From Vulcanimicrobiota bacterium (GTDB taxonomy: Bacteria > Vulcanimicrobiota > Vulcanimicrobiia > Vulcanimicrobiales > Vulcanimicrobiaceae), in NCBI GenBank assembly GCA_963714015.1, contig OY970223.1, positions 672,001 to 736,000 on the forward strand: a DNA stretch of 64,000 nt. Direction: 5' to 3'. This document shows positions 12,669 through 23,453 of this stretch, piece after piece. The position numbers and the translations under genes were made by a program. Position 1 is the first letter of the stretch; each line of letters starts with the position of its first letter. Below the pieces are notes generated by a model. That model did no database searches, had not been told where the DNA came from, and saw only the letters and a program-made list of their open reading frames with translations.

Positions 12669-13630
12669 CGTTGCGGCGCCTGCTGAAGCGTGACCACCAC
12701 CGGAACCCCGAAGGTCGACTCGTAGATGTCCGAAGCCGCGAAGGCTGTCAGGATGTAGGTGCCGGTCGTAGAGGTAAGCGTCTTCTGCATGTGAGCTTCA
12801 TCGGGCAGCATACGCCGTACCGTGACGTTGCCGGCGAAATATGGAAGCATTTGGTGCTGAATCATGACGCGCGGAACCCAGCCGGAGGGTCCCAGCAATT
12901 CGATCAAGGCGACACGGGCGTCGGCGTTCTTTCCGGCCGGAATCTGCTCGGATTCGATGGGCTGGCCGGCCGGGACAATCAACTTGTCCGGCACGGAGTT
13001 CATTGCAAAATGGATTTGGTCGTGGGGATAGAGATTTTGCGAGGCGGTTGCCAGCAGCAGAACGTTGTTTTGCGAAACGTAAGCCTGCATCTTCGGATCG
13101 TCGGCGTACTGGCGCAGGATGCTTTCGACGCCATGCGGCGGGACGAAGGGCTTGAGGTTGTAGGGGGGACGCGTGTACTGTTGATTGATCGACGCGACGG
13201 TCTGGTTGTAAAAGTCGCGGACGATCTGCCGGCGCAGCGCCGATGGCGCGTTCATCGGAATCCTTCCGACGACCGGGCTCATCAGCGATTCATAGTTCAC
13301 CAGCACGGGTGAGGTAGTGAACTTCTCCTCCAGAGCATTGGCGCGCGCCTGCGCCTTCTGAATCTCGGCGTTGATCTCGTTGAGGTGGAAGAACGCGGTT
13401 TGCACCTGATTCGAGGCGAAGATCGCAATCAGCATGATCACCAGTGCAATGATCATACCGGTTCCGACCGCGATGATCGTCGACGTGTATCGCGGCCGGA
13501 TGTTGAAGATCGTCAACCGCTTGCGCCCGACCTGGTGTCCGACGCGATCGCCGATGTAGGCGATGATACCAGCCAGAATCGCGATGAACACGATGAGGCC
13601 GATCCCGCGCAGCATTCCTTCCAGCGTCAT
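12665..13630 (-). CDS. DUF3084-like membrane protein
   Basis: AGIIAYIGDRVGHQVGRKRLTIFNIRPRYT N-terminal motif; ATGA overlap with lptF/G stop. Confidence 0.75.
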   Translation of the reverse strand: MTLEGMLRGIGLIVFIAILAGIIAYIGDRVGHQVGRKRLTIFNIRPRYTSTIIAVGTGMIIALVIMLIAIFASNQVQTAFFHLNEINAEIQKAQARANALEEKFTTSPVLVNYESLMSPVVGRIPMNAPSALRRQIVRDFYNQTVASINQQYTRPPYNLKPFVPPHGVESILRQYADDPKMQAYVSQNNVLLLATASQNLYPHDQIHFAMNSVPDKLIVPAGQPIESEQIPAGKNADARVALIELLGPSGWVPRVMIQHQMLPYFAGNVTVRRMLPDEAHMQKTLTSTTGTYILTAFAASDIYESTFGVPVVVTLQQAPQR

Positions 13631-14734
13631 ATCATTGCCGCCCGGTACAGCCGGCGCCCGCCGATGACCGTGAAGATGAGATTGGGGAGCCACGCCGCCA
13701 GCGCCGCAAGCGGCAGAAACGCTTCACCGACGTACGAACAGATCGTCGAAACGATATAGTAGGCGAACACAATTAGGACCGCAAGGCCGAAGCCCAGCCC
13801 GGTGCTTCCGCCGCCCCGAACCGAACGGATTCCGAACGGCACGGCAATCAAGGTGAATACGAAACACGCGAACGGCTGCGCCAGCTTCTGCTGGTACACC
13901 ATCGTGTACTTGCGAATCTCCCCCGCCGAGAGTTGACCGGTCCGAATGATCTCGGCGATCTGCGCGCGGCTCATGTTCTGGGGATTGTTGTTCGCTACGC
14001 GTTTGGCAATCGCGGCCGGGTTTTGCCCGAGCGAGACTTGGAGGGAGGGCGTACGCACGTCCGTGTCGCCGTTTGCCTGCAGCCGGATCACGCGCGCGTT
14101 CTGCAGCGTCCACTGGTCGGCCAAGAACTGCGCCTGATCGGCGAAGACGATCTGCGTCGGGTTTCCGGAGCGATCGTACTGAACGAGCGTGACGCCGACC
14201 AACGTGCGGCAGTTTTGCAGGCAGGCGCGTTCGAACGTCGTCTGCCTTCCGCCGCCCGGCAGCGGCGCAGAGATCAGTTGATCGCCACCGAAGGCGCTCG
14301 TGTGATTGATTACGACGGCTTCGATGATGCTGGCTTGGCTGTCGGCAAACGGAACGACCGCCTCTTGCAGCGCAAGCGTAACGAAGGAAAGAAAAAACGC
14401 CGCCGCGAGCATCGGCGCGATGATCCGCAGGAACGTAATTCCAGCCTGATTTGAGGGCTGTAATCTCACTCTCGCCGGAGAGGCGCTGAATGGCCAGGAG
14501 CGTGCCGAGCAGCAGTCCCATGGGGATCGTCAGCACGAACATGCTCGGTAACTGCCAAAGAAAGACTTCGATTGCCGCCCAGACCGGTGCGTTGGTTTCG
14601 GAGACCTCCCGCCCGATCGCGATGATCTGACCGGCCGCCAGCAGCAGCGTAAAGGCGGCAACACCGAACAGGAACGGGCCGCTGAGCTCGCTGAGCATGT
14701 ACCGATCCAGAATCGTGAGCCGCAAAGAGTTCAA
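13627..14734 (-). CDS. LptF/LptG-family LPS export permease (frameshift ~14448)
   Basis: ILDRYMLSEL..PFLFG, RLSGESEITALK, KLAQPFAC.VF.LIA.P, AAWLPN; two ORFs joined by one indel. Confidence 0.88.
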
Positions 14735-15465
14735 AGACGAAAGCCTTCGCCGAGATAAAACTGGCGCGCGATCGGACTCTCGAGCACGTCGTGCGCCGTG
14801 CCGGAGACTTCGATCTTTCCGTTGTTAAGAATGTACGCCCGGTCGACGATTGCGAGCGTTTCGCGAACTTGATGGTCCGTAATCAGCACGCCCAAACCGC
14901 GTTCGCGCAGCTGCCGGATCATCGCTTGGATATCGGCGACCGCGATCGGATCGATGCCGGTGAACGGTTCGTCCAACAGCAGAAACGCGGGCTCCGTAGC
15001 GATCGCGCGCGCTATCTCGACGCGCCGGCGCTCGCCGCCCGAGAGCGAATCGCCGCGCGCGTCGACGAATTTGAGCAGGCCGAATTCCTCGAGCAGCGGG
15101 TGAAGGCGCTCTTCCTGCTCTTCGCGCGAGACGCCGTGCATCTCCCAAATCAGACGAATGTTGTCGCCGACGGAGAGTTTGCGAAAGATCGAGTTCTCCT
15201 GCGCCAAGTACCCGATCCCGCGGCGCGAACGCATGTACATCGGCGCCGACGTAAGGTCGAAGTGCTGCGTCTCCGTATCGAGCAGCACCGTTCCGCCGTC
15301 GGGTTTGACCAGACCTACGACCATGTAAAAGGTGGTCGTCTTTCCGGCACCGTTGGGACCCAGCAAGCCGACAATCTCGCCCGTGCGCACTTCGGCACTG
15401 ACGCCGTTGACCACCGCGCGCTCGCCGTAGCGCTTGAGGAGTCCGCGCATTTGAATCTCGGGCAC
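14731..15465 (-). CDS. lptB: LPS export ABC transporter ATPase LptB
   Basis: GLLGPNGAGKTTTFYMVVGL, GIGYLAQE.SIFRKL, LSGGERRRVEIARA, LDEPFTGIDP, YLGEGFRL; GTG 15465 overlaps lptC stop. Confidence 0.95.
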   Translation of the reverse strand: MPEIQMRGLLKRYGERAVVNGVSAEVRTGEIVGLLGPNGAGKTTTFYMVVGLVKPDGGTVLLDTETQHFDLTSAPMYMRSRRGIGYLAQENSIFRKLSVGDNIRLIWEMHGVSREEQEERLHPLLEEFGLLKFVDARGDSLSGGERRRVEIARAIATEPAFLLLDEPFTGIDPIAVADIQAMIRQLRERGLGVLITDHQVRETLAIVDRAYILNNGKIEVSGTAHDVLESPIARQFYLGEGFRL

Positions 15466-16013
15466 TACTGCATCACCATCTGCGTCAGCTTCACGTCCGA
15501 AGTGAACGTGTTTCCGGTCAGAAGTTCCTGTTGGCCGCCCTGCATGCCGGTTATTCGCACGTGTCCCTCTCCGTGAAGCATGGCGGTCGTCTGATCGTAC
15601 GTGAGCCGGTCGCACGTCAAGTGCAGACCGGTGCTCGTCGTCGCGCGAACTCCGCCGGAAAGGACCACCTTCTTGTCCCGCGCGATCGCAGCGGTCGGAG
15701 CCGCCGCCTGCAGCCGCGTACCGTCTTTGTCAAAGAACGTTACCGTCGTTTGCTGAAAATTTGCTTGGGCCAGGTTCTGAGCGGAATGGCTCTCGCAGGA
15801 CTGCGCCAGCATCTCATACGCTTTCCGGTTGCCGGACTGCTGCGTGATGCGGACGGGCCGGGCGCGCGTCCCGCGGCACCGTATGTCGAGCGGCGGCAGA
15901 CCGCTCGGACTTGCAGCCGGACCGGGCGTTCCCCCCGGCCTTCGCTGCGGCTGCGGATTGCACGCCGAGCATGCAAGGACCGCCGCGAGAGCCCAAATCA
16001 GGGTCCCCTTCAT
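15465..16013 (-). CDS. lptC: LptC-like beta-jellyroll protein, probably a lipoprotein
   Basis: VTFFDKDG..LQA.A..A, VVLSGGVRATT..G..LTCDRLTYD; directly upstream of lptB; signal ending LACSAC. Confidence 0.75.
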   Translation of the reverse strand: MKGTLIWALAAVLACSACNPQPQRRPGGTPGPAASPSGLPPLDIRCRGTRARPVRITQQSGNRKAYEMLAQSCESHSAQNLAQANFQQTTVTFFDKDGTRLQAAAPTAAIARDKKVVLSGGVRATTSTGLHLTCDRLTYDQTTAMLHGEGHVRITGMQGGQQELLTGNTFTSDVKLTQMVMQ

Positions 16014-17206
16014 GACTCCTCTCCCAAGCCGTCATCGGCCGCCGCGAGTGCGAGCGCCATAGCGGGCATCCACAATCCGAAGATCACGATGCTCACGGTA
16101 TCGATGAGCCCTTGCACCCACGTTCCGGCAAGTCCCGCCGCGACCGCGAAAGCCAGCACGCGGCCGGTCTGCGAAGCTCCCCGCAGCCGATCGCGCAGCG
16201 TCGTCGCGAATCTCCACCACGCCGCAAGAACGGCAACCAGCCCGACGATCCCGGTTTCGGCAAAAATGGTCAGCAGAAAGCTGTGCGCGTGAAAGGCAAT
16301 CGCGTCGCCGTCGGGCAGCCGCACCAGCGGGTAGATTCGGGCAAAGTCGAACGGCCCGACGCCGGTGAGCGGAAAGCGCCGCACAATCTCCAGTCCCGCT
16401 TCCCAAATCGAAAGACGGGTGTAGTTTTCCGCCGGATTGTGGTGGGCGTTGAATACGACGAGCACTGCGGCCAGACCGGCCAGAAGGATCGCGGGAGCGA
16501 ATCGCCGCTGCACGTTCCCGCTGAGATAAGCGTAAAACGCGATTGCCGCGGCCAAACCCATCCAGCCCGCGCGAGAAAAAGTTAACACGAGGGCAGCGAG
16601 TCCGGCTGCGATCGCGATGCAGGCGATTATCCGCAGAATACGATCGCGTGCAACGCGCGCGAGCGCATATGCCAGCGGCAAGAAGACGATGAGATACCCC
16701 GCGAGCTCGCCCGGCAGAACGAACGTTCCGATCGCGCGCCCATGCCCAATGGCGTACTGATCCGCGGGAAGCCGCAACAGCACCATGACGACCGCCGCCA
16801 GCGATGCCATTGCGCCCGAAACAAGAAACGCGTAATAGATCGCGCGGCTTGCTCCGGGATATGTATAGTAGCGCAGGACGAACAAGTGCCAAATGACGCT
16901 GACCGCCGCTATTCCCAGAAACAACAGCCCGCCCGCGGGATCGAATCCCACGAGTGCCGACAATACGCCGGACGCAACCCATGCAACCAACGGGACGAGT
17001 GTCGGCGGACGCTCGACCGGCGGCCGCAGAATCATTGCTGCGAAATACGACCCGAGCAGGGCGCAAACTGCAAGCAGTGCGATGCCCGCGGTGCGCGGGA
17101 CCAGCGACACTCCGGGAACCGAAACGACGGTCAGCATGATGAACGCGGGGAAGAGCGGCACAATGAAAAACGCGAGCGCCAAGCTTGCGGGGATTAGTCG
17201 TTTCAC
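16010..17206 (-). CDS. O-antigen ligase family protein
   Basis: Multi-TM; LTFSRAGW, RLSIW..GL, PLTGVGP..F, HAHS.LL...AETGIVG. Confidence 0.85.
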   Translation of the reverse strand: MKRLIPASLALAFFIVPLFPAFIMLTVVSVPGVSLVPRTAGIALLAVCALLGSYFAAMILRPPVERPPTLVPLVAWVASGVLSALVGFDPAGGLLFLGIAAVSVIWHLFVLRYYTYPGASRAIYYAFLVSGAMASLAAVVMVLLRLPADQYAIGHGRAIGTFVLPGELAGYLIVFLPLAYALARVARDRILRIIACIAIAAGLAALVLTFSRAGWMGLAAAIAFYAYLSGNVQRRFAPAILLAGLAAVLVVFNAHHNPAENYTRLSIWEAGLEIVRRFPLTGVGPFDFARIYPLVRLPDGDAIAFHAHSFLLTIFAETGIVGLVAVLAAWWRFATTLRDRLRGASQTGRVLAFAVAAGLAGTWVQGLIDTVSIVIFGLWMPAMALALAAADDGLGEES

Positions 17207-18333
17207 GCGATGAGCTGCGCAATCTCGGCTGCGATCCGTTTTGCAGCACCGGGAGGTCCCATCCGTTCGCGTCCCGCGGCCGACATGGCGGCGCGCCGTT
17301 TTTCGTCCGCCAGCAGCTGTGCAACTTCCGAGGCCGCCGAGCGTTCGTCCCCGGCTACGACCAAAAGGGCCTCGCCCAGAAGACCGGCTTGCCTATGCCG
17401 GTACCACGCATGTTTGCCGCGCTCGCTGGTTGTGAACGCGATCACGGGAATGCCGGCGGCGGCGGCAGCTTCGTTTGCGGTCCCCGCCTGCCCGAGCACA
17501 GCATCCGCGCCGCGCAGCATTGCACCGATTGGGCCGCGCCAGGCGCGCAGCATTTCACGTCCGCCGGCCAGGGCGCGGAAAGGAGCGGCCGCATCGGCGA
17601 CGACTTCGAAGCCGGCCGATACCACGGCGCTAGCCATGCGATTTGCGTCCAGCCCGGGCGCGATCGAAAGCGCCGCTCCGAGCGACGGTTGCTCGCGCCC
17701 GAGCTCGCGTACGACGCGTGCGAGAAATTCTGCGGCGGCGTACGCGTCCTGGCGGCTTCCCGGGAAGAGCGCCAAATACGGCGCGAACGCATCATTGGGC
17801 GAGGGCCCTTCGTCCTGATAGAGATCGACGATCACGTTGCCGCTTCGCGCCGCTATACCGTGCCGGCGAAGGCGCTGCGCCGTCGGTTCGTCGCGCACGT
17901 ATACCACGGCCGCCTTACGGATCACGCGCTCTTCGAATGCACCGTAAGGCGCGACATACACGCTCTTTGCGGTTCCGACGAAAGCCGTGGCCGCTCGCGC
18001 CTGGAGTGCCATCATCAGTGCGAACACGTCGCCGACCGCGATTACCGCCGCATACTCCTTGCGGGCACGACGCAGAAATCGCAATTGCGTCAGCGTATGC
18101 GCGGCTAACCCTGCACGCAGATCGCGCAGGATGTTTTGCGCGTTGCCCATGGCGATGAGGCCGCCGCTCGGCATTTGCCGGCGAGGTCCCACGTCCCGCA
18201 TAACACTCGGGTGCTCAAAATCACCGACCAGCGCGAGATGATCGCCGGCAGCCGCCTGCGTCAATTCGGCAGCGATTTGCGCCGCTATGGCGACCTCGCC
18301 GTGGCCGTTCGAAACGAAGAGCACGCGTTTCAT
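17203..18333 (-). CDS. Lipid-A-disaccharide-synthase-related glycosyltransferase (TIGR03492-like)
   Basis: LFVSNGHGE, MPSGG, AVGD, FVGTAKS, LFPGSR, GQAGTANE, RMGPPGAA.RIA. Confidence 0.75.
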   Translation of the reverse strand: MKRVLFVSNGHGEVAIAAQIAAELTQAAAGDHLALVGDFEHPSVMRDVGPRRQMPSGGLIAMGNAQNILRDLRAGLAAHTLTQLRFLRRARKEYAAVIAVGDVFALMMALQARAATAFVGTAKSVYVAPYGAFEERVIRKAAVVYVRDEPTAQRLRRHGIAARSGNVIVDLYQDEGPSPNDAFAPYLALFPGSRQDAYAAAEFLARVVRELGREQPSLGAALSIAPGLDANRMASAVVSAGFEVVADAAAPFRALAGGREMLRAWRGPIGAMLRGADAVLGQAGTANEAAAAAGIPVIAFTTSERGKHAWYRHRQAGLLGEALLVVAGDERSAASEVAQLLADEKRRAAMSAAGRERMGPPGAAKRIAAEIAQLIA

Positions 18334-19046
18334 ACGCCGAGCAGCGGGCGCAGAGCGAATTCGCGCAACGTCCAGCGCCCTTGCGCGTAAGCGATGTCGC
18401 TTTGCGATACGAATTTGCCGTATGGACCCGCGTGCACGATCGGAACGCCGGCAATGACTTCGGGCTGCGCAAGCGTGTCGTGACTGTGGCCGCCCAATAA
18501 TAGCGTGATTCGCGGCACCGCCGCTGCGAGTTTGCGATCGAGGCGCAGACCGATGTGCGAAAGCACGACGAGCGGTTCATCTTGGGGAAGGCTGCACGCG
18601 TATTCGCCGACGACAGTCGCCGGATCGAGAAATCGCCAGCCGAAAACGCGCTCCCACGGACTGCCGGCCGGGTACTGCATAACGAGCAATCCGAGCAAGT
18701 GCACGCGCACGCCGCCGCTTTCAATGACGTGCGATCGTAAAAAGGGCAGTTCCCGCTCCTTGAGATCCACGAGGTTGCTGCAGATCAGCGGATGCCGCAT
18801 CCGTGCAGCTCGCGCTCGAACGCAGCCGAAGACGTAATGAAACTCCCGGTTACCCATGGCCTGCGCGTCATAGCCGGCGGCGTCGATCTCGCCGATGATC
18901 GGCTCTTGGCGGTGATAGACCGTTTGACTGCCGCGCAGTGAGTCGCCGCAGTCGAAGAGCAGCCCGGACTCCCGTTCGCGCAGCGCGCGCAGCGGTGCCT
19001 CGATCCCACGATGATCGTGAAGATCAGAGGTGTGGTAAATCCGCAC
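18330..19046 (-). CDS. Calcineurin-like metallophosphoesterase
   Basis: HTSDLH, DCGDS, GNREF, LSHIG, GGHSH motifs; GTG 19046 overlaps TAG of the lpxB tail. Confidence 0.85.
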   Translation of the reverse strand: MRIYHTSDLHDHRGIEAPLRALRERESGLLFDCGDSLRGSQTVYHRQEPIIGEIDAAGYDAQAMGNREFHYVFGCVRARAARMRHPLICSNLVDLKERELPFLRSHVIESGGVRVHLLGLLVMQYPAGSPWERVFGWRFLDPATVVGEYACSLPQDEPLVVLSHIGLRLDRKLAAAVPRITLLLGGHSHDTLAQPEVIAGVPIVHAGPYGKFVSQSDIAYAQGRWTLREFALRPLLGV

Positions 19047-20162
19047 TACCCGGCACCTTTGCGCGCCGCCGCTACGACGAACGCAGCGCATTGCCGGAGC
19101 GCGTCGTCTGAACCAAGCGCCGCGCGAAGCTCCGCCAGCGCGGCGTATTGCTGGGCCGGATCGTGCAGAGATCTCGTCCATCGCGGTCGACAAGTTGGCC
19201 GGCGTCGCGCGCTCCTGCAGAATCTCCGGCACGATTTCGCGCCCGAGTACCAGGTTGGGAAGCGTGAAAAAACGCCGGGAATAAACTTTGCGCACGTAAC
19301 GTTCGAGCAGCGGTGAGACGATGTACATTGCCGCGCAAGGCACGCCGGAAAGCGCACATTCGAGCACGGCCGTACCTGACGCAACCCACGCTGCGTCGGC
19401 CTGCGCGATTGCGGCACGGGTCCCACGAGCGAACGTCACATCGTTCAGCTGCGCGCGCGCCGCCGCAGACCGAAGCTCGCGCTCAATGCGTTCGTCAGGC
19501 GCACCGATAACGGCGCGGGCGTACGGGCGTTTGCGTTTCAGATCGCGAAATGCGTTCAGCAGCGCCGGCACGTGATACCGCAGTTCGGCCGGGCGGCTTC
19601 CCGGGAGAATCGCCACTGTGCCGCCGTCCCGCGGCGGCGCTTCGCGCGGCGGACGCATCGCATATTGTGAGGCGAGCGGGTGGCCGAAGTATGCCGCTTG
19701 CAATCCGCGTGCGGCGTAAAACTCGTGCTGATGGGCGAATGCCGTAAGCGGCAGCGCAACTGCAGCAACGGCGCGCGCCGTACGCTCGGAGTCCAGCCAC
19801 GCGCCGGGCGGGAAGAGATCGACGATCGTGCCGCCGTAGTGCATGCGGCGCAGGCGTTGCGCGAGCCGCACGTTGAACGCGCCGAAGTCGACGAGCACCA
19901 GCACGTCGGGTTTACTCGCAAAGATATGGCGCGTCGCGGCTTGCCATGCGAAGTACAGCTTCGGAATCTTGGGAATCGCGGCAAACGGCCCGAACGAGGC
20001 CCAGCCCGTGTTTTCGCGCCACACCGTAAAGCCGGCTTCACGCATCAGGCCTGCGCCTATTCCTTCGAATTGCGCGTCCGGATCGATTTGCGCAATTGCT
20101 TGCGCCAACACGACGGCGGCGAACTCTCCCGACGCCTCGCCGGTCGAAAAAAAATACCGCAA
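19046..20162 (-). CDS. lpxB: Lipid-A-disaccharide synthase LpxB (frameshift ~19170)
   Basis: STGEASGE, VDFGAFN, FGHPL, ILPGSRPAE, ASGTAVLECAL, LPNLVLGREIVPEILQ; C-terminus continues in the frame ending at 19046. Confidence 0.9.
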
Positions 20163-20189: not shown

Positions 20190-20960
20190 TCATTTCAGCA
20201 GGACGCCGCGCTGCGATTCCCCTTCCAGAAACTGCAGCATATGCCGGCCCGAATCGGTAGCCGCTTCGGACTTCATCACCTCGAGCGCTTCCGCCAAACG
20301 CAACTTCGAACCGTTGAGCAGCTTGTAGAACTTTTTGATCTCGGCTCGGTCTTCGTCGCTGAAGCTGGCGCGCCGAAGGCCGACGCTGTTCAATCCATAC
20401 GGTACGGCCGGGTCGCCTTCGACGAGAAAATACGGCGGAATGTCGCGGCGCACTTTACTGGCGCCCCCGACGAACGCGTAGCGCCCTACGCGGACGAATT
20501 GATGAAATCCCGCCATGCCGCCGATCGTCACGTTGTCTTCGACGAAGCAATGTCCGGCAAGCTGCGCCAGGTTGCTCATCGTCACGTTGTTCCCGACCTC
20601 GCAATTGTGCGCGATGTGCACGTACCCCAGCAGCAAACAGTCGTCGCCGACGACCGTTGCTTGGTCTTCTCCCGTCGCGCGCTGAATGCTGACGTACTCC
20701 CGAATGACCGTACGGCTTCCAATTCTCGTGTACGCGCGCTCGCCTTCGTATTTTTTATCTTGCGAGGCGGCTCCGATGGTCGCGAACGGATAAATCCGGC
20801 TATCCTCGCCGATCGAAGTCCAGCCGTTTACCACGACGTGCGCTTGCAGCACCGTCCCGCGTCCGATCGACACGTTCTCTCCGACGACGCAATACGGACC
20901 GATCTCGACGCCGCGATCGAGTTTCGCATTCGGATGGACGATCGCCGTCGGGTGGATCAT
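20190..20960 (-). CDS. lpxA: UDP-N-acetylglucosamine acyltransferase LpxA
   Basis: MIHPTAIV hexapeptide repeats, QDKKYEGE, IREYVSI, HIAHNC, LAGH, GLNSVGLRR. Confidence 0.97.
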   Translation of the reverse strand: MIHPTAIVHPNAKLDRGVEIGPYCVVGENVSIGRGTVLQAHVVVNGWTSIGEDSRIYPFATIGAASQDKKYEGERAYTRIGSRTVIREYVSIQRATGEDQATVVGDDCLLLGYVHIAHNCEVGNNVTMSNLAQLAGHCFVEDNVTIGGMAGFHQFVRVGRYAFVGGASKVRRDIPPYFLVEGDPAVPYGLNSVGLRRASFSDEDRAEIKKFYKLLNGSKLRLAEALEVMKSEAATDSGRHMLQFLEGESQRGVLLK

Positions 20961-21102: not shown

Positions 21103-21576
21103 TCAAGCATGCAGCACCGTCGCGTCAAAACCGAAGAGCCGCGGATCCGACGCAATTGAAAACATGAGTTCCGCCGAGACGACGAATTGATCTTCTACGC
21201 GTCCTTCGGCATGCACCCAGCCGATGTTGCGCTTGTGTTTGGTCAGGCGCACTTCCATCATGAAACGATCGCCCGGCACGACGGGGCGGCGGAATTTGCA
21301 CGCGTCGATACCGGCCAGGTACGGCGTCTTGCGAGAAAATTCGCCGGGCTCCAGGACGACGGCGCCGCCGAGCTGCGCAAGCGCTTCGATCATGTAGACG
21401 CCGGGCAGGAGCGGATTTCCCGGGAAATGCCCCGTGAATACGGGCTCGGTCGCGGTTACGTTCTTGTAACCGACGGCGCGCACGCCGGGCTCTAATTCCA
21501 CGATCCGATCGACCAGCAGAATCGGATAGCGGTGCGGCAAGATCTCCATGATCTGCCGGATGTCGAGTTCAGCCAA
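21103..21576 (-). CDS. fabZ: 3-hydroxyacyl-ACP dehydratase FabZ
   Basis: LPHRYP.LLVDRI, KNVT, FTGHFPGNP.LPGV..IEALAQ, FRRPVVPGD; TTG start 21576. Confidence 0.95.
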   Translation of the reverse strand: MAELDIRQIMEILPHRYPILLVDRIVELEPGVRAVGYKNVTATEPVFTGHFPGNPLLPGVYMIEALAQLGGAVVLEPGEFSRKTPYLAGIDACKFRRPVVPGDRFMMEVRLTKHKRNIGWVHAEGRVEDQFVVSAELMFSIASDPRLFGFDATVLHA

Positions 21577-21578
21577 GG

Positions 21579-22421
21579 CTATTGCACTTTCGCAGCCGGC
21601 AGAGGATTTTGGCGAAGCTTGCGCAGCTCGCTCGTGGCGAGGCAGTGCAGCTTGTGACCGCTCTTGATCGCCACGATCTCGCATTGCGGATATGCGCCGA
21701 GCAGCGCGAAGTCTCCAAGCAGGTCGAGCACTTTATGGCGCACCGGCTCGTCGGGCCAGCGCAGTTCCTGCATGGGTCCTTCGGGCGCAAACACCACGGC
21801 GTTCTCGAGCGTACCGCCCTTGGCCAGCCCGCGATCCAGCAGCGCCTGCACTTCGTGCAGATATCCGAACGTGCGCGCAGCCGCTATTTCGCGCTCGAAC
21901 ACGCCGGAATCCATTTCGGCGTCAAAGTATTGCGCACCGATGGGCGGAGCAAAGTCGGCGATGAAGCGCACGCGCAAACGCGCGGCGGGAAGAATGACGA
22001 TCGCGCGGTCGCCGTCCCGCAGGAAGACCGCCGAGAGCGGGACGTACGTCTCGCGAACTTCTTTTTGCCGGACGGTGCCGGCTTCATGGATGCGATCGAC
22101 GAAGAACTTGGCGCTGCCGTCCGCGACGGGAATTTCCGGACCGTCGACGTGGATCTCGGCGTTGGCAACTCCCGTTCCGAACAGTGCGGAAAGCAGATGC
22201 TCGACCGTGGAGATAGTGACGCCGTCTTTGCCCAAGACCGTTGCGCGCGCGGTTTCGACGACGAACTCGGCCAGAGCCGGAATGTTTACGCCGCCGGAGC
22301 GAAAGACGAATCCCGAATCGGGAGCCCCGGGACGCACTTCAATGCGGCAAGCAGCGCCGCTATGCAGTCCTACGCCGTGCACTTCGAACGCGTTGCGCAG
22401 CGTGCTCTGGTACTGCGTCAC
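21579..22421 (-). CDS. lpxC: UDP-3-O-acyl-N-acetylglucosamine deacetylase LpxC
   Basis: GVGLHSG, TVEHLLSAL, ARTFG, GGTLENA, RHKVLDLLGD, GHKLH. Confidence 0.96.
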   Translation of the reverse strand: MTQYQSTLRNAFEVHGVGLHSGAACRIEVRPGAPDSGFVFRSGGVNIPALAEFVVETARATVLGKDGVTISTVEHLLSALFGTGVANAEIHVDGPEIPVADGSAKFFVDRIHEAGTVRQKEVRETYVPLSAVFLRDGDRAIVILPAARLRVRFIADFAPPIGAQYFDAEMDSGVFEREIAAARTFGYLHEVQALLDRGLAKGGTLENAVVFAPEGPMQELRWPDEPVRHKVLDLLGDFALLGAYPQCEIVAIKSGHKLHCLATSELRKLRQNPLPAAKVQ

Positions 22422-22424
22422 CGT

Positions 22425-23453
22425 TCAGCGTCCGCTGTCTTTTTCTTCGAGCGCCTCGACACGGGCAACCAGCTTAGGCAGGTCTCGAAGCATGACCTCT
22501 CGTCTGAGGTCCTCCCGATGCGGCCGTGCCGGCGTGCCGCTGACGAATGCGTCGTCCGGAAGGTTGCTCCATACCCTCGCGCCCGCTGCAATTTTCACGC
22601 GAGAACCAATGGTAATGTGTCCTTTGAAGCCTGACTGGCCGCCGACCAGCACGTAGTCTCCCAGAATGGTGCTGCCCGCGAGACCCGTTTGAGCGGCCAT
22701 GCCGACGCCGCGCCCGATGCGGCAATTATGTCCGACCTGGCACAGGTTGTCGATTTTGGTGCCGTCGCCGATCTGCGTACTGCCCGTTTGCGCGCGGTCG
22801 ATGCACGTATTGGCGCCAATCTCGACGTCGTCGCCCAGCACCACGTTGCCGACTTGCGGAATCCGCTCGAACCGGCCGTCGACGAAGACGTAGCCGAACC
22901 CGTCGCTGCCAACGGTCGCGCCGGCTTGCAGAATCACCCGATCGCCGGCGACGCACTCGTCCAAGATGCGCGCGTGCGGATGAAGAATCGCATCGGCGCC
23001 TACTCGCGCGTCTTGCCCGACGTACGTCCCTGCTTCGAGTACCGTTCGGTCACCGACCACCGCACCGCGGGAGACGACGACGTGGGGCCCGATGTACACG
23101 TCCTCACCGACTTGCGCCGAAGCTTCGACGATGGCGGAAGCATCGCGATACGGACCGCACTTTCGAGGACGATCGAACTCACGCAGAAGTTCCATCAGCG
23201 CGATGCGCGCGCTGGCGACGCAGATGAGCGGCTTACGGGCGTCGGTCATGCTTTCGACGAGGGCTTCATCGACGATAATGGCGGCGGCTCGCGACTTCAG
23301 GGCTGCCTGCAGATAAGCCGGGGTCGTTGCGAACGTCAGGGTCCCCGAATCAGCCTCGTCGATAGCCGCTATACTTGCGATGCGCAGGCCGGAATCGCCG
23401 CGAACCGTTCCGCCTACCCGCCGCGCAAGATCGGCCAGCGTTCCGAGGCTCAT
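22425..23453 (-). CDS. lpxD: UDP-3-O-acylglucosamine N-acyltransferase LpxD
   Basis: GSDGFGY, IPQVGNV, EIGANTCIDR, KIDNLCQVGHN hexapeptide repeats. Confidence 0.96.
   Translation of the reverse strand: MSLGTLADLARRVGGTVRGDSGLRIASIAAIDEADSGTLTFATTPAYLQAALKSRAAAIIVDEALVESMTDARKPLICVASARIALMELLREFDRPRKCGPYRDASAIVEASAQVGEDVYIGPHVVVSRGAVVGDRTVLEAGTYVGQDARVGADAILHPHARILDECVAGDRVILQAGATVGSDGFGYVFVDGRFERIPQVGNVVLGDDVEIGANTCIDRAQTGSTQIGDGTKIDNLCQVGHNCRIGRGVGMAAQTGLAGSTILGDYVLVGGQSGFKGHITIGSRVKIAAGARVWSNLPDDAFVSGTPARPHREDLRREVMLRDLPKLVARVEALEEKDSGR

What the first reader, a model, noticed from the sequence alone, without database searches (positions are those of the whole stretch)
18330..19046. Metallophosphoesterase coupled to lpxB with a GNRE motif: candidate for the missing LpxH/LpxI/LpxG step
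Seen: the cluster has lpxA, lpxC, lpxD and lpxB but no recognisable lpxH or lpxI; the gene coupled to lpxB (TAGTG overlap) is a stand-alone, signal-less calcineurin-like phosphoesterase. Its motifs resemble the 5'-nucleotidase N-terminal domain (HTSDLH, DCGD, LSH.G, GGHSH), but motif III is GNRE rather than GNHE. Established: LpxH and LpxG are calcineurin-like enzymes, and LpxH has Arg at this position (GNRD). Inference: a distinct UDP-2,3-diacylglucosamine hydrolase type, or a lipid A phosphatase.
Basis: partly seen in the sequence, partly recalled or inferred. Interest (0 to 1): 0.78.

Follow-up and report, generated by a model that had tools for sequence, protein, structure and literature searches.

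The report
Candidate lipid X-forming phosphoesterase in Eremiobacterota
A small cytoplasmic metal-dependent phosphoesterase sits inside the lipid A gene cluster of a soil bacterium whose whole phylum lacks the known enzymes for one essential lipid A step, which makes it a good but unproven candidate for that step.

Summary
Window 18330-19046 (minus strand) encodes a 238-aa protein with no signal peptide, made only of a UshA/5'-nucleotidase-type N-terminal domain. Its motif III is GNRE, not GNHE. Its GTG start overlaps the lpxB stop (TAGTG), and its stop overlaps the start of an LpxB-like glycosyltransferase, TIGR03492 (ATGA).

In a sample of 151 genomes of the phylum (Eremiobacterota):
- the protein was found in 150
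- LpxB in 149
- LpxH in 0
- LpxI in 0
- WaaA in 1

GNRE is a family signature. Longer relatives that carry the 5'-nucleotidase C-domain keep GNH[ED].

The most constant partner is TIGR03492, not LpxB. The two genes are adjacent in 90 of 92 loci, and two sequences only 39% identical to each other carry them as one fused protein. An Armatimonadota clade of the family lies away from lpx genes, sometimes beside membrane glycosyltransferases.

My best reading is a fourth, independently evolved UDP-2,3-diacylglucosamine pyrophosphatase (about 0.45). The main rival is a cytoplasmic lipid A 1-phosphatase that feeds the neighbouring glycosyltransferase (about 0.25).

The scan noted the same idea earlier on other Eremiobacterota DNA (e1-4301900, e1-1534385). 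My literature searches found no paper on this family. The apparent LpxB-phosphoesterase fusion in this assembly comes from a single extra base at 19168.

The parts
18330..19046 (-). Stand-alone phosphoesterase of 238 aa with the UshA/5'-nucleotidase N-domain fold (the finding). GTG start, TGA stop.
   Evidence: Translation. NCBIfam best hits are SoxB and UshA-like, far below their cut-offs. The family profile matches 5'-nucleotidase/UshA chains in the PDB at E 4e-37 to 1e-35. AlphaFold model pLDDT 98, top Foldseek hits YunD and UshA with TM 0.79-0.83.
18843..18854 (-). Motif III, GNRE (G65 N66 R67 E68), followed by F69 H70. It aligns to GNHEFD of UshA.
   Evidence: Sequence. Alignment to 2z1a and UshA. 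Family conservation.
19046..20162 (-). lpxB (lipid A disaccharide synthase). In this assembly one extra base at 19168 splits it over two frames. Its TAG stop overlaps the phosphoesterase GTG.
   Evidence: PF02684 at 1.2e-51 over profile positions 2-335 in one frame. The C-terminal 44 aa lie in another frame and align to relatives' LpxB tails. A contig of run X1 lacks one base at 19168.
17203..18333 (-). TIGR03492 'lipid-A-disaccharide synthase-related protein', an LpxB-like GT-B glycosyltransferase. Its ATG overlaps the phosphoesterase stop (ATGA).
   Evidence: TIGR03492 at 9.4e-65, 218.8 bits against a cut-off of 219.2. Invariant SNGHGE, GD, PGSR and GTxxE motifs in 32 sequences. These are compared with the LpxB residues E15/S17, D98, P198-R201 and T277/E281 in PMC5785501. 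The correspondence is my reading by eye, not a computed alignment.
16010..17206 (-). Membrane protein of the Wzy_C / O-antigen-ligase type
   Evidence: PF04932 at 1e-19
20190..20960 (-). lpxA
   Evidence: NF003657 at 2.7e-103
21103..21684 (-). fabZ
   Evidence: NF000582 at 6.8e-52
21579..22421 (-). lpxC
   Evidence: TIGR00325 at 4.8e-68
22425..23453 (-). lpxD
   Evidence: NF002060 at 1.4e-104
13627..16013 (-). lptC (15465-16013), lptB (14731-15615) and lptF/G (13627-14734, also split over two frames in this assembly)
   Evidence: TIGR04409 and TIGR04406. PF03739 profile positions 1-86 lie in one frame and 87-353 in another.

Best explanation
The gene encodes a cytoplasmic, two-metal phosphoesterase derived from the catalytic N-domain of the UshA/5'-nucleotidase family. 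In Eremiobacterota it most likely does the job of LpxH, LpxI or LpxG: it cuts the pyrophosphate of UDP-2,3-diacylglucosamine to give UMP and lipid X, the acceptor that LpxB needs. In the proposed mechanism (inferred), the conserved Asp, His and Asn residues hold two metal ions that activate water to attack the alpha-phosphate, as in UshA acting on UDP-sugars. Arg67, which replaces the usual catalytic His, would bind the departing sugar-1-phosphate, as Arg80 does in LpxH. The protein has no substrate-binding C-domain and no lipid-binding insertion. Substrate presentation probably depends on the membrane surface or on the adjacent, sometimes fused, LpxB-like TIGR03492 protein.
For: Shown here:
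1. Homology to the UshA/5'-nucleotidase catalytic domain (profile E 4e-37 to 1e-35; fold TM 0.79-0.83). All metal ligands are invariant in 58 sequences (D8 H10 D35 N66 H164 H187 H189).
2. GNRE marks the short family (310 of 317 proteins). Relatives that carry the 5_nucleotid_C domain keep GNH[ED].
3. Phylum sample of 151 genomes: the family in 150, LpxB in 149, LpxI_C in 0, LpxH in 0, WaaA in 1, that one in a genome with 9% contamination. In the one genome without the phosphoesterase (G131), the lpxB match itself covers only profile positions 2-173. I read this as a contig break.
4. Synteny: lpxB lies directly upstream in 71 of 73 close-relative loci and within 4.5 kb in 17 of 20 loci from other families of the phylum.
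5. The own genome has only four other metallophosphoesterase genes: a Tat-exported CpdA-like protein with GEHD, a YfcE-like protein with GNTD, a broken ApaH-like gene, and a TIGR00282 member. None looks like LpxH or LpxG.

From papers (passages read):
- LpxB needs lipid X as acceptor (PMC5785501).
- The His-to-Arg change in motif III is reported as specific to LpxH, where Arg80 salt-bridges the lipid X phosphate (PMC3087551, PMC5016852).
- The cultured phylum member Vulcanimicrobium alpinus has an outer membrane and abundant 3-hydroxy fatty acids (PMC9758169).

Inference: an Arg in place of a proton-donating His suits a phosphate leaving group better than a sugar hydroxyl.
Against: - No biochemical or genetic test exists.
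- The protein does not match the LpxH model (not among the NCBIfam hits). No LpxH chain matches the family profile even at E<=10.
- The model shows no helical insertion domain of the kind that holds the acyl chains in LpxH (PMC5016852).
- The strictly conserved neighbour and fusion partner is TIGR03492, not LpxB. A lipid X maker would be expected to pair with LpxB.
- In the 10 metagenome loci of the Armatimonadota-type clade, none has lpxA/B/C/D or TIGR03492 in its flanks (three have short flanks). Three are followed by polytopic GT-C-like membrane proteins, and one of these is preceded by kdsD-kdsC.
- Cyanobacteria and Dictyoglomi also lack LpxH and LpxI (PMC3087551), and I could not test whether they carry this family. 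An unknown, shared solution for lipid X is therefore not excluded.
- I could not search for LpxG with a family model.
Confidence: 0.45

Rival explanations
1. The protein is a cytoplasmic lipid A 1-phosphatase. It removes the 1-phosphate from the LpxB product (disaccharide 1-phosphate) or from lipid X at the inner face of the membrane. The neighbouring glycosyltransferase (TIGR03492 in Eremiobacterota, a GT-C-type enzyme in Armatimonadota) can then decorate a phosphate-free lipid A.
For: - The constant partner is a glycosyltransferase: TIGR03492 is adjacent in 72 of 72 and 18 of 20 loci.
- Two fusion proteins, P0156 and P0399, are only 39% identical to each other over their full length.
- In the Armatimonadota-type clade, 3 of 10 loci have a homologous 9-12-TM GT-C-like protein directly downstream, and one of these also has a GT2 polyprenyl-phosphate sugar transferase-like gene.
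- The phylum has no WaaA, and the own genome has no LpxK, as in cyanobacteria. Cyanobacterial lipid A is reported to lack phosphate and to carry sugars instead (PMC4515613 and PMC3087551, passages read).
- 5'-nucleotidase-family enzymes hydrolyse phosphomonoesters.
Against: - The usual proton-donating His is replaced by Arg, and the Asp of the His-Asp pair by His. By inference this is unfavourable for expelling a sugar hydroxyl.
- This reading leaves lipid X formation unexplained in a phylum with LpxB and no LpxH or LpxI.
- In other classes of the phylum, an ICMT/PEMT-type methyltransferase sits next to the gene. Its best NCBIfam hit is the Leptospira lipid A 1-phosphate methyltransferase LmtA, though weakly: 66 bits against a cut-off of 325. 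If it really methylates the 1-phosphate, that phosphate is kept.
- Known lipid A phosphatases (LpxE, LpxF) are periplasm-facing PAP2 enzymes (recalled).
Confidence: 0.25
2. The protein is an accessory hydrolase of the TIGR03492 glycosyltransferase and acts on some other nucleotide-linked or phosphorylated LPS or glycolipid intermediate. Examples are hydrolysis of a UDP-sugar, of UDP released by the transferase, or of a phosphorylated product of TIGR03492. On this reading it has no role in lipid X formation.
For: - The TIGR03492 pairing and the fusions.
- TIGR03492 keeps the UDP- and pyrophosphate-binding motifs of LpxB, so it is probably an active UDP-sugar transferase.
- TIGR03492 also gives a match in Deinococcus radiodurans. 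That organism has no lipid A (recalled), so this glycosyltransferase family is not tied to lipid A.
- UshA itself is a general UDP-sugar hydrolase.
Against: - A free cytoplasmic UDP-sugar hydrolase would be wasteful.
- It does not explain the near-perfect co-occurrence with LpxB, or the absence of any lipid X-forming enzyme in 151 genomes.
Confidence: 0.2
3. The protein is a housekeeping nucleotidase or phosphodiesterase that only happens to lie in the operon.
For: Source annotations call relatives '5'-nucleotidase' or '2',3'-cyclic-nucleotide 2'-phosphodiesterase'. Several Armatimonadota-type loci have unrelated neighbours.
Against: - The gene has kept its position across a phylum whose GC content ranges from 36 to 69%.
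- Translational coupling at both ends.
- The fusions with TIGR03492.
- Loss of the nucleoside-binding C-domain and of the catalytic His.
Confidence: 0.07

Closest known systems
UshA / 5'-nucleotidase family (E. coli UshA 1USH, T. thermophilus 2Z1A, B. subtilis YunD, human CD73)
   Same: The catalytic N-terminal two-metal domain is homologous in sequence (profile E 4e-37 to 1e-35) and in fold (TM 0.79-0.83). All metal ligands are kept. UshA hydrolyses UDP-sugars to UMP and sugar-1-phosphate, the same bond chemistry proposed here.
   Different: - Only the N-domain is present. There is no 5_nucleotid_C substrate-binding domain (238 aa).
- There is no signal peptide, so the protein is cytoplasmic.
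- The motif is GNREFH instead of GNHEFD, so the His-Asp pair is replaced.
LpxH (UDP-2,3-diacylglucosamine pyrophosphatase of beta- and gamma-proteobacteria)
   Same: Both belong to the calcineurin-like metallophosphoesterase superfamily and are of similar size (about 240 aa). Both have Arg in place of the motif III His (GNRD in LpxH, GNRE here). In LpxH the Arg binds the lipid X phosphate (PMC5016852). Both are cytoplasmic and belong to lipid A gene contexts.
   Different: - There is no sequence relationship beyond the superfamily: no TIGR01854 match and no LpxH chain at E<=10.
- The model has no helical insertion domain for the acyl chains.
- The Arg therefore arose independently.
LpxG (Chlamydia Ct461) and LpxI (alpha-proteobacteria, diderm Firmicutes)
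   Same: These are alternative, non-orthologous enzymes for the same step, showing that the step has been reinvented several times (PMC4807358). LpxI genes lie inside lpx clusters, as this gene does.
   Different: LpxG has an N-terminal transmembrane helix and GNHD (PMC4807358); this protein has neither. LpxI is a different fold, and PF06230 was not found.
Four-enzyme, Kdo-free lipid A pathway of Cyanobacteria and Dictyoglomi (Opiyo et al. 2010)
   Same: The gene set is the same (lpxD-lpxC-fabZ-lpxA-lpxB without lpxH, lpxI, lpxK or waaA). A TIGR03492 paralogue is present, and that family also gives a match in Synechococcus elongatus.
   Different: No phosphoesterase has been described as part of that pathway. 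I could not test here whether those phyla carry this family.

Membership tests
LpxH (TIGR01854) | Match to the LpxH family model above its cut-off | tested here: not met
   TIGR01854 is not among the NCBIfam hits of the protein. No match in the genome or in 151 genomes of the phylum. No LpxH chain matched by the family profile at E<=10.
LpxH (TIGR01854) | Arg in place of His in motif III (GNRD) | tested here: met
   GNRE. R67 is at least 90% conserved and present in 310 of 317 relatives. It aligns to the His of GNHE in UshA and 2z1a.
LpxH (TIGR01854) | Helical insertion (lid) domain that forms the acyl-chain cavity | tested here: not met
   The AlphaFold model (pLDDT 98) has only short helices within the core fold and no insertion domain of about 55 aa. 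The LpxH domain is described in PMC5016852 (passages read).
LpxH (TIGR01854) | UDP-2,3-diacylglucosamine pyrophosphatase activity, or rescue of an lpxH mutant | not testable with these tools
   Needs a bench assay.
LpxG | N-terminal transmembrane helix and a GNHD motif (PMC4807358) | tested here: not met
   The protein starts at the DxH motif and has 0 hydrophobic segments. Its motif is GNRE. No LpxG family model was available for a search.
LpxI | LpxI_C domain (PF06230) | tested here: not met
   No Pfam hit on the protein. 0 of 151 genomes.
UshA / 5'-nucleotidase family | Homologous N-terminal metallophosphatase domain with a complete set of metal ligands | tested here: met
UshA / 5'-nucleotidase family | C-terminal 5_nucleotid_C substrate-binding domain | tested here: not met
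   The protein is 238 aa and has no PF02872 hit. The longer relatives do have it.
UshA / 5'-nucleotidase family | Catalytic His-Asp pair (GNHEFD) | tested here: not met
   GNREFH.
UshA / 5'-nucleotidase family | NCBIfam equivalog scores (UshA, SoxB, UshA-like) | tested here: not met
   SoxB 80 bits against 550, UshA 43.7 against 600, UshA-like 51.5 against 275.

The most novel reading that the evidence does not exclude
The phosphoesterase and the LpxB-like TIGR03492 protein form a two-part, sometimes fused, enzyme. The glycosyltransferase-fold protein takes over the role of the lost 5'-nucleotidase C-domain and presents UDP-2,3-diacylglucosamine to the two-metal site. This would be a fourth, independently evolved lipid X synthase and the missing step of the Kdo-free 'four-enzyme' LPS pathway in Eremiobacterota and perhaps Armatimonadota.
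Probability: 0.15. Interest if true: 0.8.

Novelty: new variant of a known kind. Interest (0 to 1): 0.6.

Why it matters
The step that makes lipid X is essential for LPS and has already been found three times in unrelated forms (LpxH, LpxI, LpxG). Several diderm phyla still have no known enzyme for it. This family fills that gap, on paper, for a whole, globally abundant soil phylum. It comes with clear tests: rescue of an E. coli lpxH mutant, an in vitro assay, and lipid A mass spectrometry of the one cultured species. If it instead proves to be a cytoplasmic lipid A phosphatase coupled to a new LpxB-like transferase, that would explain how phosphate-free, Kdo-free lipid A is built. Either result bears on how outer membranes evolved in the Terrabacteria. 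The independent His-to-Arg change is also a neat case of convergence in an enzyme superfamily.

Tried and rejected
- Complex prediction on TIGR03492 plus the phosphoesterase (alignments A4 and A1) returned 'no answer' with score 0.00 (after two queue refusals). It counts neither for nor against binding.
- LpxB-phosphoesterase fusion: 11 longer proteins were found, all single-member clusters. One is this genome's own 571-aa gene call. A contig of run X1 lacks one base at 19168, which restores the lpxB frame. I therefore reject a real fusion here.
- Other metallophosphoesterases of the genome as the lipid X enzyme. I set these aside but did not disprove them: a Tat-exported CpdA-like protein (GEHD), a YfcE-like protein (GNTD), a broken ApaH-like gene, and a TIGR00282 member.
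- The search for related loci with the 58-sequence alignment failed because it had no conserved stretch. I repeated it with a 9-sequence alignment, but the 80 loci kept of 320 relatives were all Eremiobacterota-like. I therefore obtained no genomes of other phyla.
- Taxon labels: of the 30 cluster look-ups, the four that gave a taxon name gave only Eremiobacterota or Armatimonadota. The protein atlas gave the same two phyla for the three nearest clusters, plus two lower-ranked Bacillota clusters that I did not check.
- Runs X2 and X3 held only short, unlike pieces of the stretch.
- Literature: seven searches were answered and one failed on term syntax. None showed a paper on this family or on lipid A synthesis in Eremiobacterota or Armatimonadota. 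Subscription journals are not covered.
Full report
**What is there.** The minus strand of window 18330-19046 is an open frame of 238 codons. It begins with GTG, and the protein starts directly at the first metallophosphoesterase motif (VRIYHTSDLHDH). A Kyte-Doolittle scan finds no hydrophobic segment, so the protein is cytoplasmic and soluble or peripheral. The GTG shares its G with the TAG that ends the frame carrying the LpxB C-terminus (TAGTG). The TGA stop overlaps the ATG of the next gene (ATGA). The gene order on the minus strand is as follows:
- bamA, then three Skp/OmpH-like open frames, two of which overlap
- lpxD, lpxC, fabZ, lpxA, lpxB
- this gene
- TIGR03492 ('lipid-A-disaccharide synthase-related protein')
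- a Wzy_C / O-antigen-ligase-like protein
- lptC, lptB, lptF/G

**A flaw in the assembly.** In the window, the first ~325 residues of LpxB are in the same frame as the phosphoesterase. The last 44 residues, which align to the LpxB tails of relatives, are in another frame. In the seven relatives whose lpxB tail I read through, lpxB is one frame. A contig of a public soil-metagenome run (X1) matches 19043-19224 with no other difference, but it lacks one base at 19168. Removing that base gives ...AMDEILHDPAQQY..., matching the relatives. The genome's own gene call is a 571-aa 'LpxB-phosphoesterase' protein (P0395). I take this to be an artefact of one extra base. The contig has a depth of only 3.5, so a real strain variant is not excluded. 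lptF/G is also split over two frames, which fits an assembly with indel errors.

**What family it is.**
- Pfam sees only sub-threshold Metallophos matches.
- The best NCBIfam hits are SoxB, UshA-like and UshA, all far below their cut-offs.
- A profile of 58 relatives matches the N-terminal domains of Thermus 5'-nucleotidase (E 4e-37), E. coli UshA (about 1e-35) and CD73.
- The AlphaFold model (pLDDT 98, pTM 0.94) is closest to B. subtilis YunD and E. coli UshA (TM 0.79-0.83 on the query).

So this is the catalytic half of a UshA-type enzyme without the C-terminal substrate-binding domain. In the profile alignment, GNRE lines up with GNHE of 2z1a and UshA. The Asp of UshA's GNHEFD is His here (GNREFH).

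**The Arg is a family trait.** In the 58-sequence alignment, D8, H10, G34, D35, G65, N66, E68, N91, H164, H187 and H189 are invariant, and R67 is at least 90% conserved. Of the 317 retrieved proteins of 200-300 aa, 310 have GNRE, 2 GNHE, 1 GNVD, and 4 show no motif in the window scanned. The longer hits of the same searches have GNH[ED] at that position, and the 5'-nucleotidase-type proteins I scanned among them carry 5_nucleotid_C. Two papers (passages read) state that His-to-Arg at this position is found only in LpxH (PMC3087551). In P. aeruginosa LpxH, Arg80 makes a bidentate salt bridge to the lipid X phosphate, whereas the His of other family members acts in bond cleavage (PMC5016852). 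The family here is not related to LpxH beyond the superfamily: there is no TIGR01854 hit, and no LpxH chain matches at E<=10. The Arg is therefore convergent. The model also lacks the helical insertion domain that holds the acyl chains in LpxH.

**Distribution and the missing step.** The genome is one contig of 3.56 Mb with marker completeness 89.6%. It gave no match to LpxH, LpxI_C, LpxK or the WaaA N-domain. Labelled relatives show that the organism belongs to Eremiobacterota (NCBI: Vulcanimicrobiota), family Baltobacteraceae or near it. An even sample of 151 genomes of the phylum (72 genera, GC 36-69%) gave:

| Family searched | Genomes with a match (of 151) |
|---|---|
| This phosphoesterase family | 150 |
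| LpxB | 149 |
| LpxI_C | 0 |
| LpxH | 0 |
| WaaA | 1 (a genome with 9% contamination) |

- The single genome without the phosphoesterase (G131) has an lpxB match that stops at profile position 173 of 374. I read this as a contig break.
- One of the 151 genomes (G128) is unpublished.
- The phylum thus has the Kdo-free 'four-enzyme' gene set described for Cyanobacteria and Dictyoglomi (PMC3087551) plus this gene.
- The only cultured member, Vulcanimicrobium alpinus, has an outer membrane and 27% 3-hydroxy fatty acids (PMC9758169, passages read).
- The own genome has four other metallophosphoesterase genes. They are a Tat-exported CpdA-like protein with GEHD, a YfcE-like protein with GNTD, a broken ApaH-like gene, and a TIGR00282 member. 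None has LpxH or LpxG features.

**Gene neighbourhood.**
- In 80 loci from species genomes (64-76% identity to the window protein), TIGR03492 lies directly downstream in 72 of the 72 with enough sequence. lpxB lies directly upstream in 71 of 73.
- In 20 loci from other families of the phylum (31-43% identity), TIGR03492 is directly downstream in 18 of 20. lpxB lies 0.5-4 kb upstream in 17 of 20 and is never adjacent.
- The space between holds a second LpxB-like protein and an ICMT/PEMT-type membrane methyltransferase, sometimes fused to each other. The methyltransferase's best NCBIfam hit is Leptospira LmtA, but weakly.
- Two proteins, P0156 (650 aa) and P0399 (640 aa), are phosphoesterase-TIGR03492 fusions. 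They are only 39% identical to each other over their full length, so the fusion is old and real.
- TIGR03492 keeps motifs that I read, by eye, as the LpxB residues for UDP and pyrophosphate binding and the presumed catalytic Asp.

The fixed functional unit is therefore phosphoesterase plus TIGR03492, inside an lpx/lpt cluster.

**The second clade.** A FastTree rooted on 5'-nucleotidase N-domains splits the family in two (I did not examine support values). One clade is Eremiobacterota. In the other, every labelled member is Armatimonadota.
- Ten metagenome loci of that clade (30-34% identity, all GNRE, about 240 aa) have no LpxA/B/C/D or TIGR03492 in their flanks. Three of them have short flanks.
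- Three are followed by homologous 9-12-TM GT-C-like proteins (PMT_2 / LIC_10190-like). One of these is preceded by kdsD-kdsC and followed by a GT2.
- One has a separate 5_nucleotid_C-only gene just upstream.
- The others have unrelated neighbours.

I could not get whole genomes of that phylum, so I do not know whether they carry LpxH or LpxI.

**Weighing the readings.** LpxB needs lipid X, and the phylum has LpxB with none of the searchable enzymes that make it. This gene is the only cytoplasmic phosphoesterase tied to the cluster. It descends from a UDP-sugar hydrolase, and it has independently acquired the one substitution that distinguishes LpxH. I therefore put UDP-2,3-diacylglucosamine pyrophosphatase first, at 0.45.

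Four observations hold it back: the absence of a lipid-binding lid, the pairing with TIGR03492 rather than LpxB, the unlinked Armatimonadota clade, and the possibility that four-enzyme lineages share another, unknown solution.

The main rival, at 0.25, is a cytoplasmic 1-phosphatase that prepares lipid A for glycosylation by the neighbouring transferase. This fits the glycosyltransferase partners in both clades and the phosphate-free lipid A of cyanobacteria (PMC4515613, passages read). It fits the Arg-for-His change less well, and it leaves lipid X unexplained.

An accessory hydrolase for TIGR03492 acting on another substrate gets 0.2. A housekeeping enzyme gets about 0.07.

The complex prediction gave no verdict and is not used.

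**Novelty.** The same idea was noted earlier in this scan on two other Eremiobacterota genomes (e1-4301900, e1-1534385). I reused none of their evidence. I tested one of their claims (this gene or LpxI, never both) only within the phylum. Seven literature searches found no paper on this family. If the best reading is right, this is a new, non-orthologous form of a known enzyme activity.

Noticed in passing
window 19168 (within lpxB, 19046-20162, minus strand): One extra base splits lpxB into two frames and creates an apparent 571-610-aa LpxB-phosphoesterase fusion, which is also the genome's own gene call (P0395). A contig of run X1 lacks that base, and removing it restores the frame.
   Followed up: yes
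window 13627-14734, minus strand: lptF/G is also split over two frames. PF03739 profile positions 1-86 lie in ORF 13724-14734 and positions 87-353 in ORF 13627-14469. This is probably another indel error of the assembly.
   Followed up: partly
P0156 and P0399 (proteins from the public collections): These are natural fusions of the phosphoesterase with the TIGR03492 LpxB-like glycosyltransferase. They are 39% identical to each other over about 640 aa.
   Followed up: yes
L167, L170-L172, L175-L177, L180, L181, L184 and L090 (between lpxB and the phosphoesterase): Other classes of the phylum insert a second, divergent LpxB-like protein and an ICMT/PEMT-type (weakly LmtA-like) membrane methyltransferase. 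In L170, L177 and L184 the methyltransferase domain lies in a single ~650-aa protein; in L170 and L177 that protein also has a weak LpxB match. These clusters thus hold three LpxB-family genes.
   Followed up: partly
L086, L087, L088 (metagenome loci, Armatimonadota-type clade): The phosphoesterase is followed by homologous polytopic GT-C-like membrane proteins. In L086 and L088 a second polytopic protein of about 470 aa (7-9 predicted TM) follows. In L087 the gene is preceded by kdsD-kdsC and followed by a GT2.
   Followed up: partly
L093:5208-5885: A free-standing 5_nucleotid_C-only gene lies just upstream of a GNRE phosphoesterase. It is as if the two halves of a 5'-nucleotidase were encoded separately and in reverse order.
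   Followed up: no
G000:C1:3409426-3410029 (own genome, outside the window): An ApaH-like metallophosphoesterase gene is in two pieces with an in-frame TGA. It is either broken or another assembly error.
   Followed up: no
Phylum sample, family f6, genera g43 and g67 (e.g. G012:C1:59652-60704): LpxB lies in open frames of 807-857 aa, so it seems to be fused to another domain in that lineage.
   Followed up: no
control genomes: TIGR03492 also gives matches in Synechococcus elongatus, Deinococcus radiodurans and Bacteroides thetaiotaomicron (over its cut-off in two of the three). By my recollection Deinococcus makes no lipid A, so this glycosyltransferase family is not restricted to lipid A producers.
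   Followed up: no
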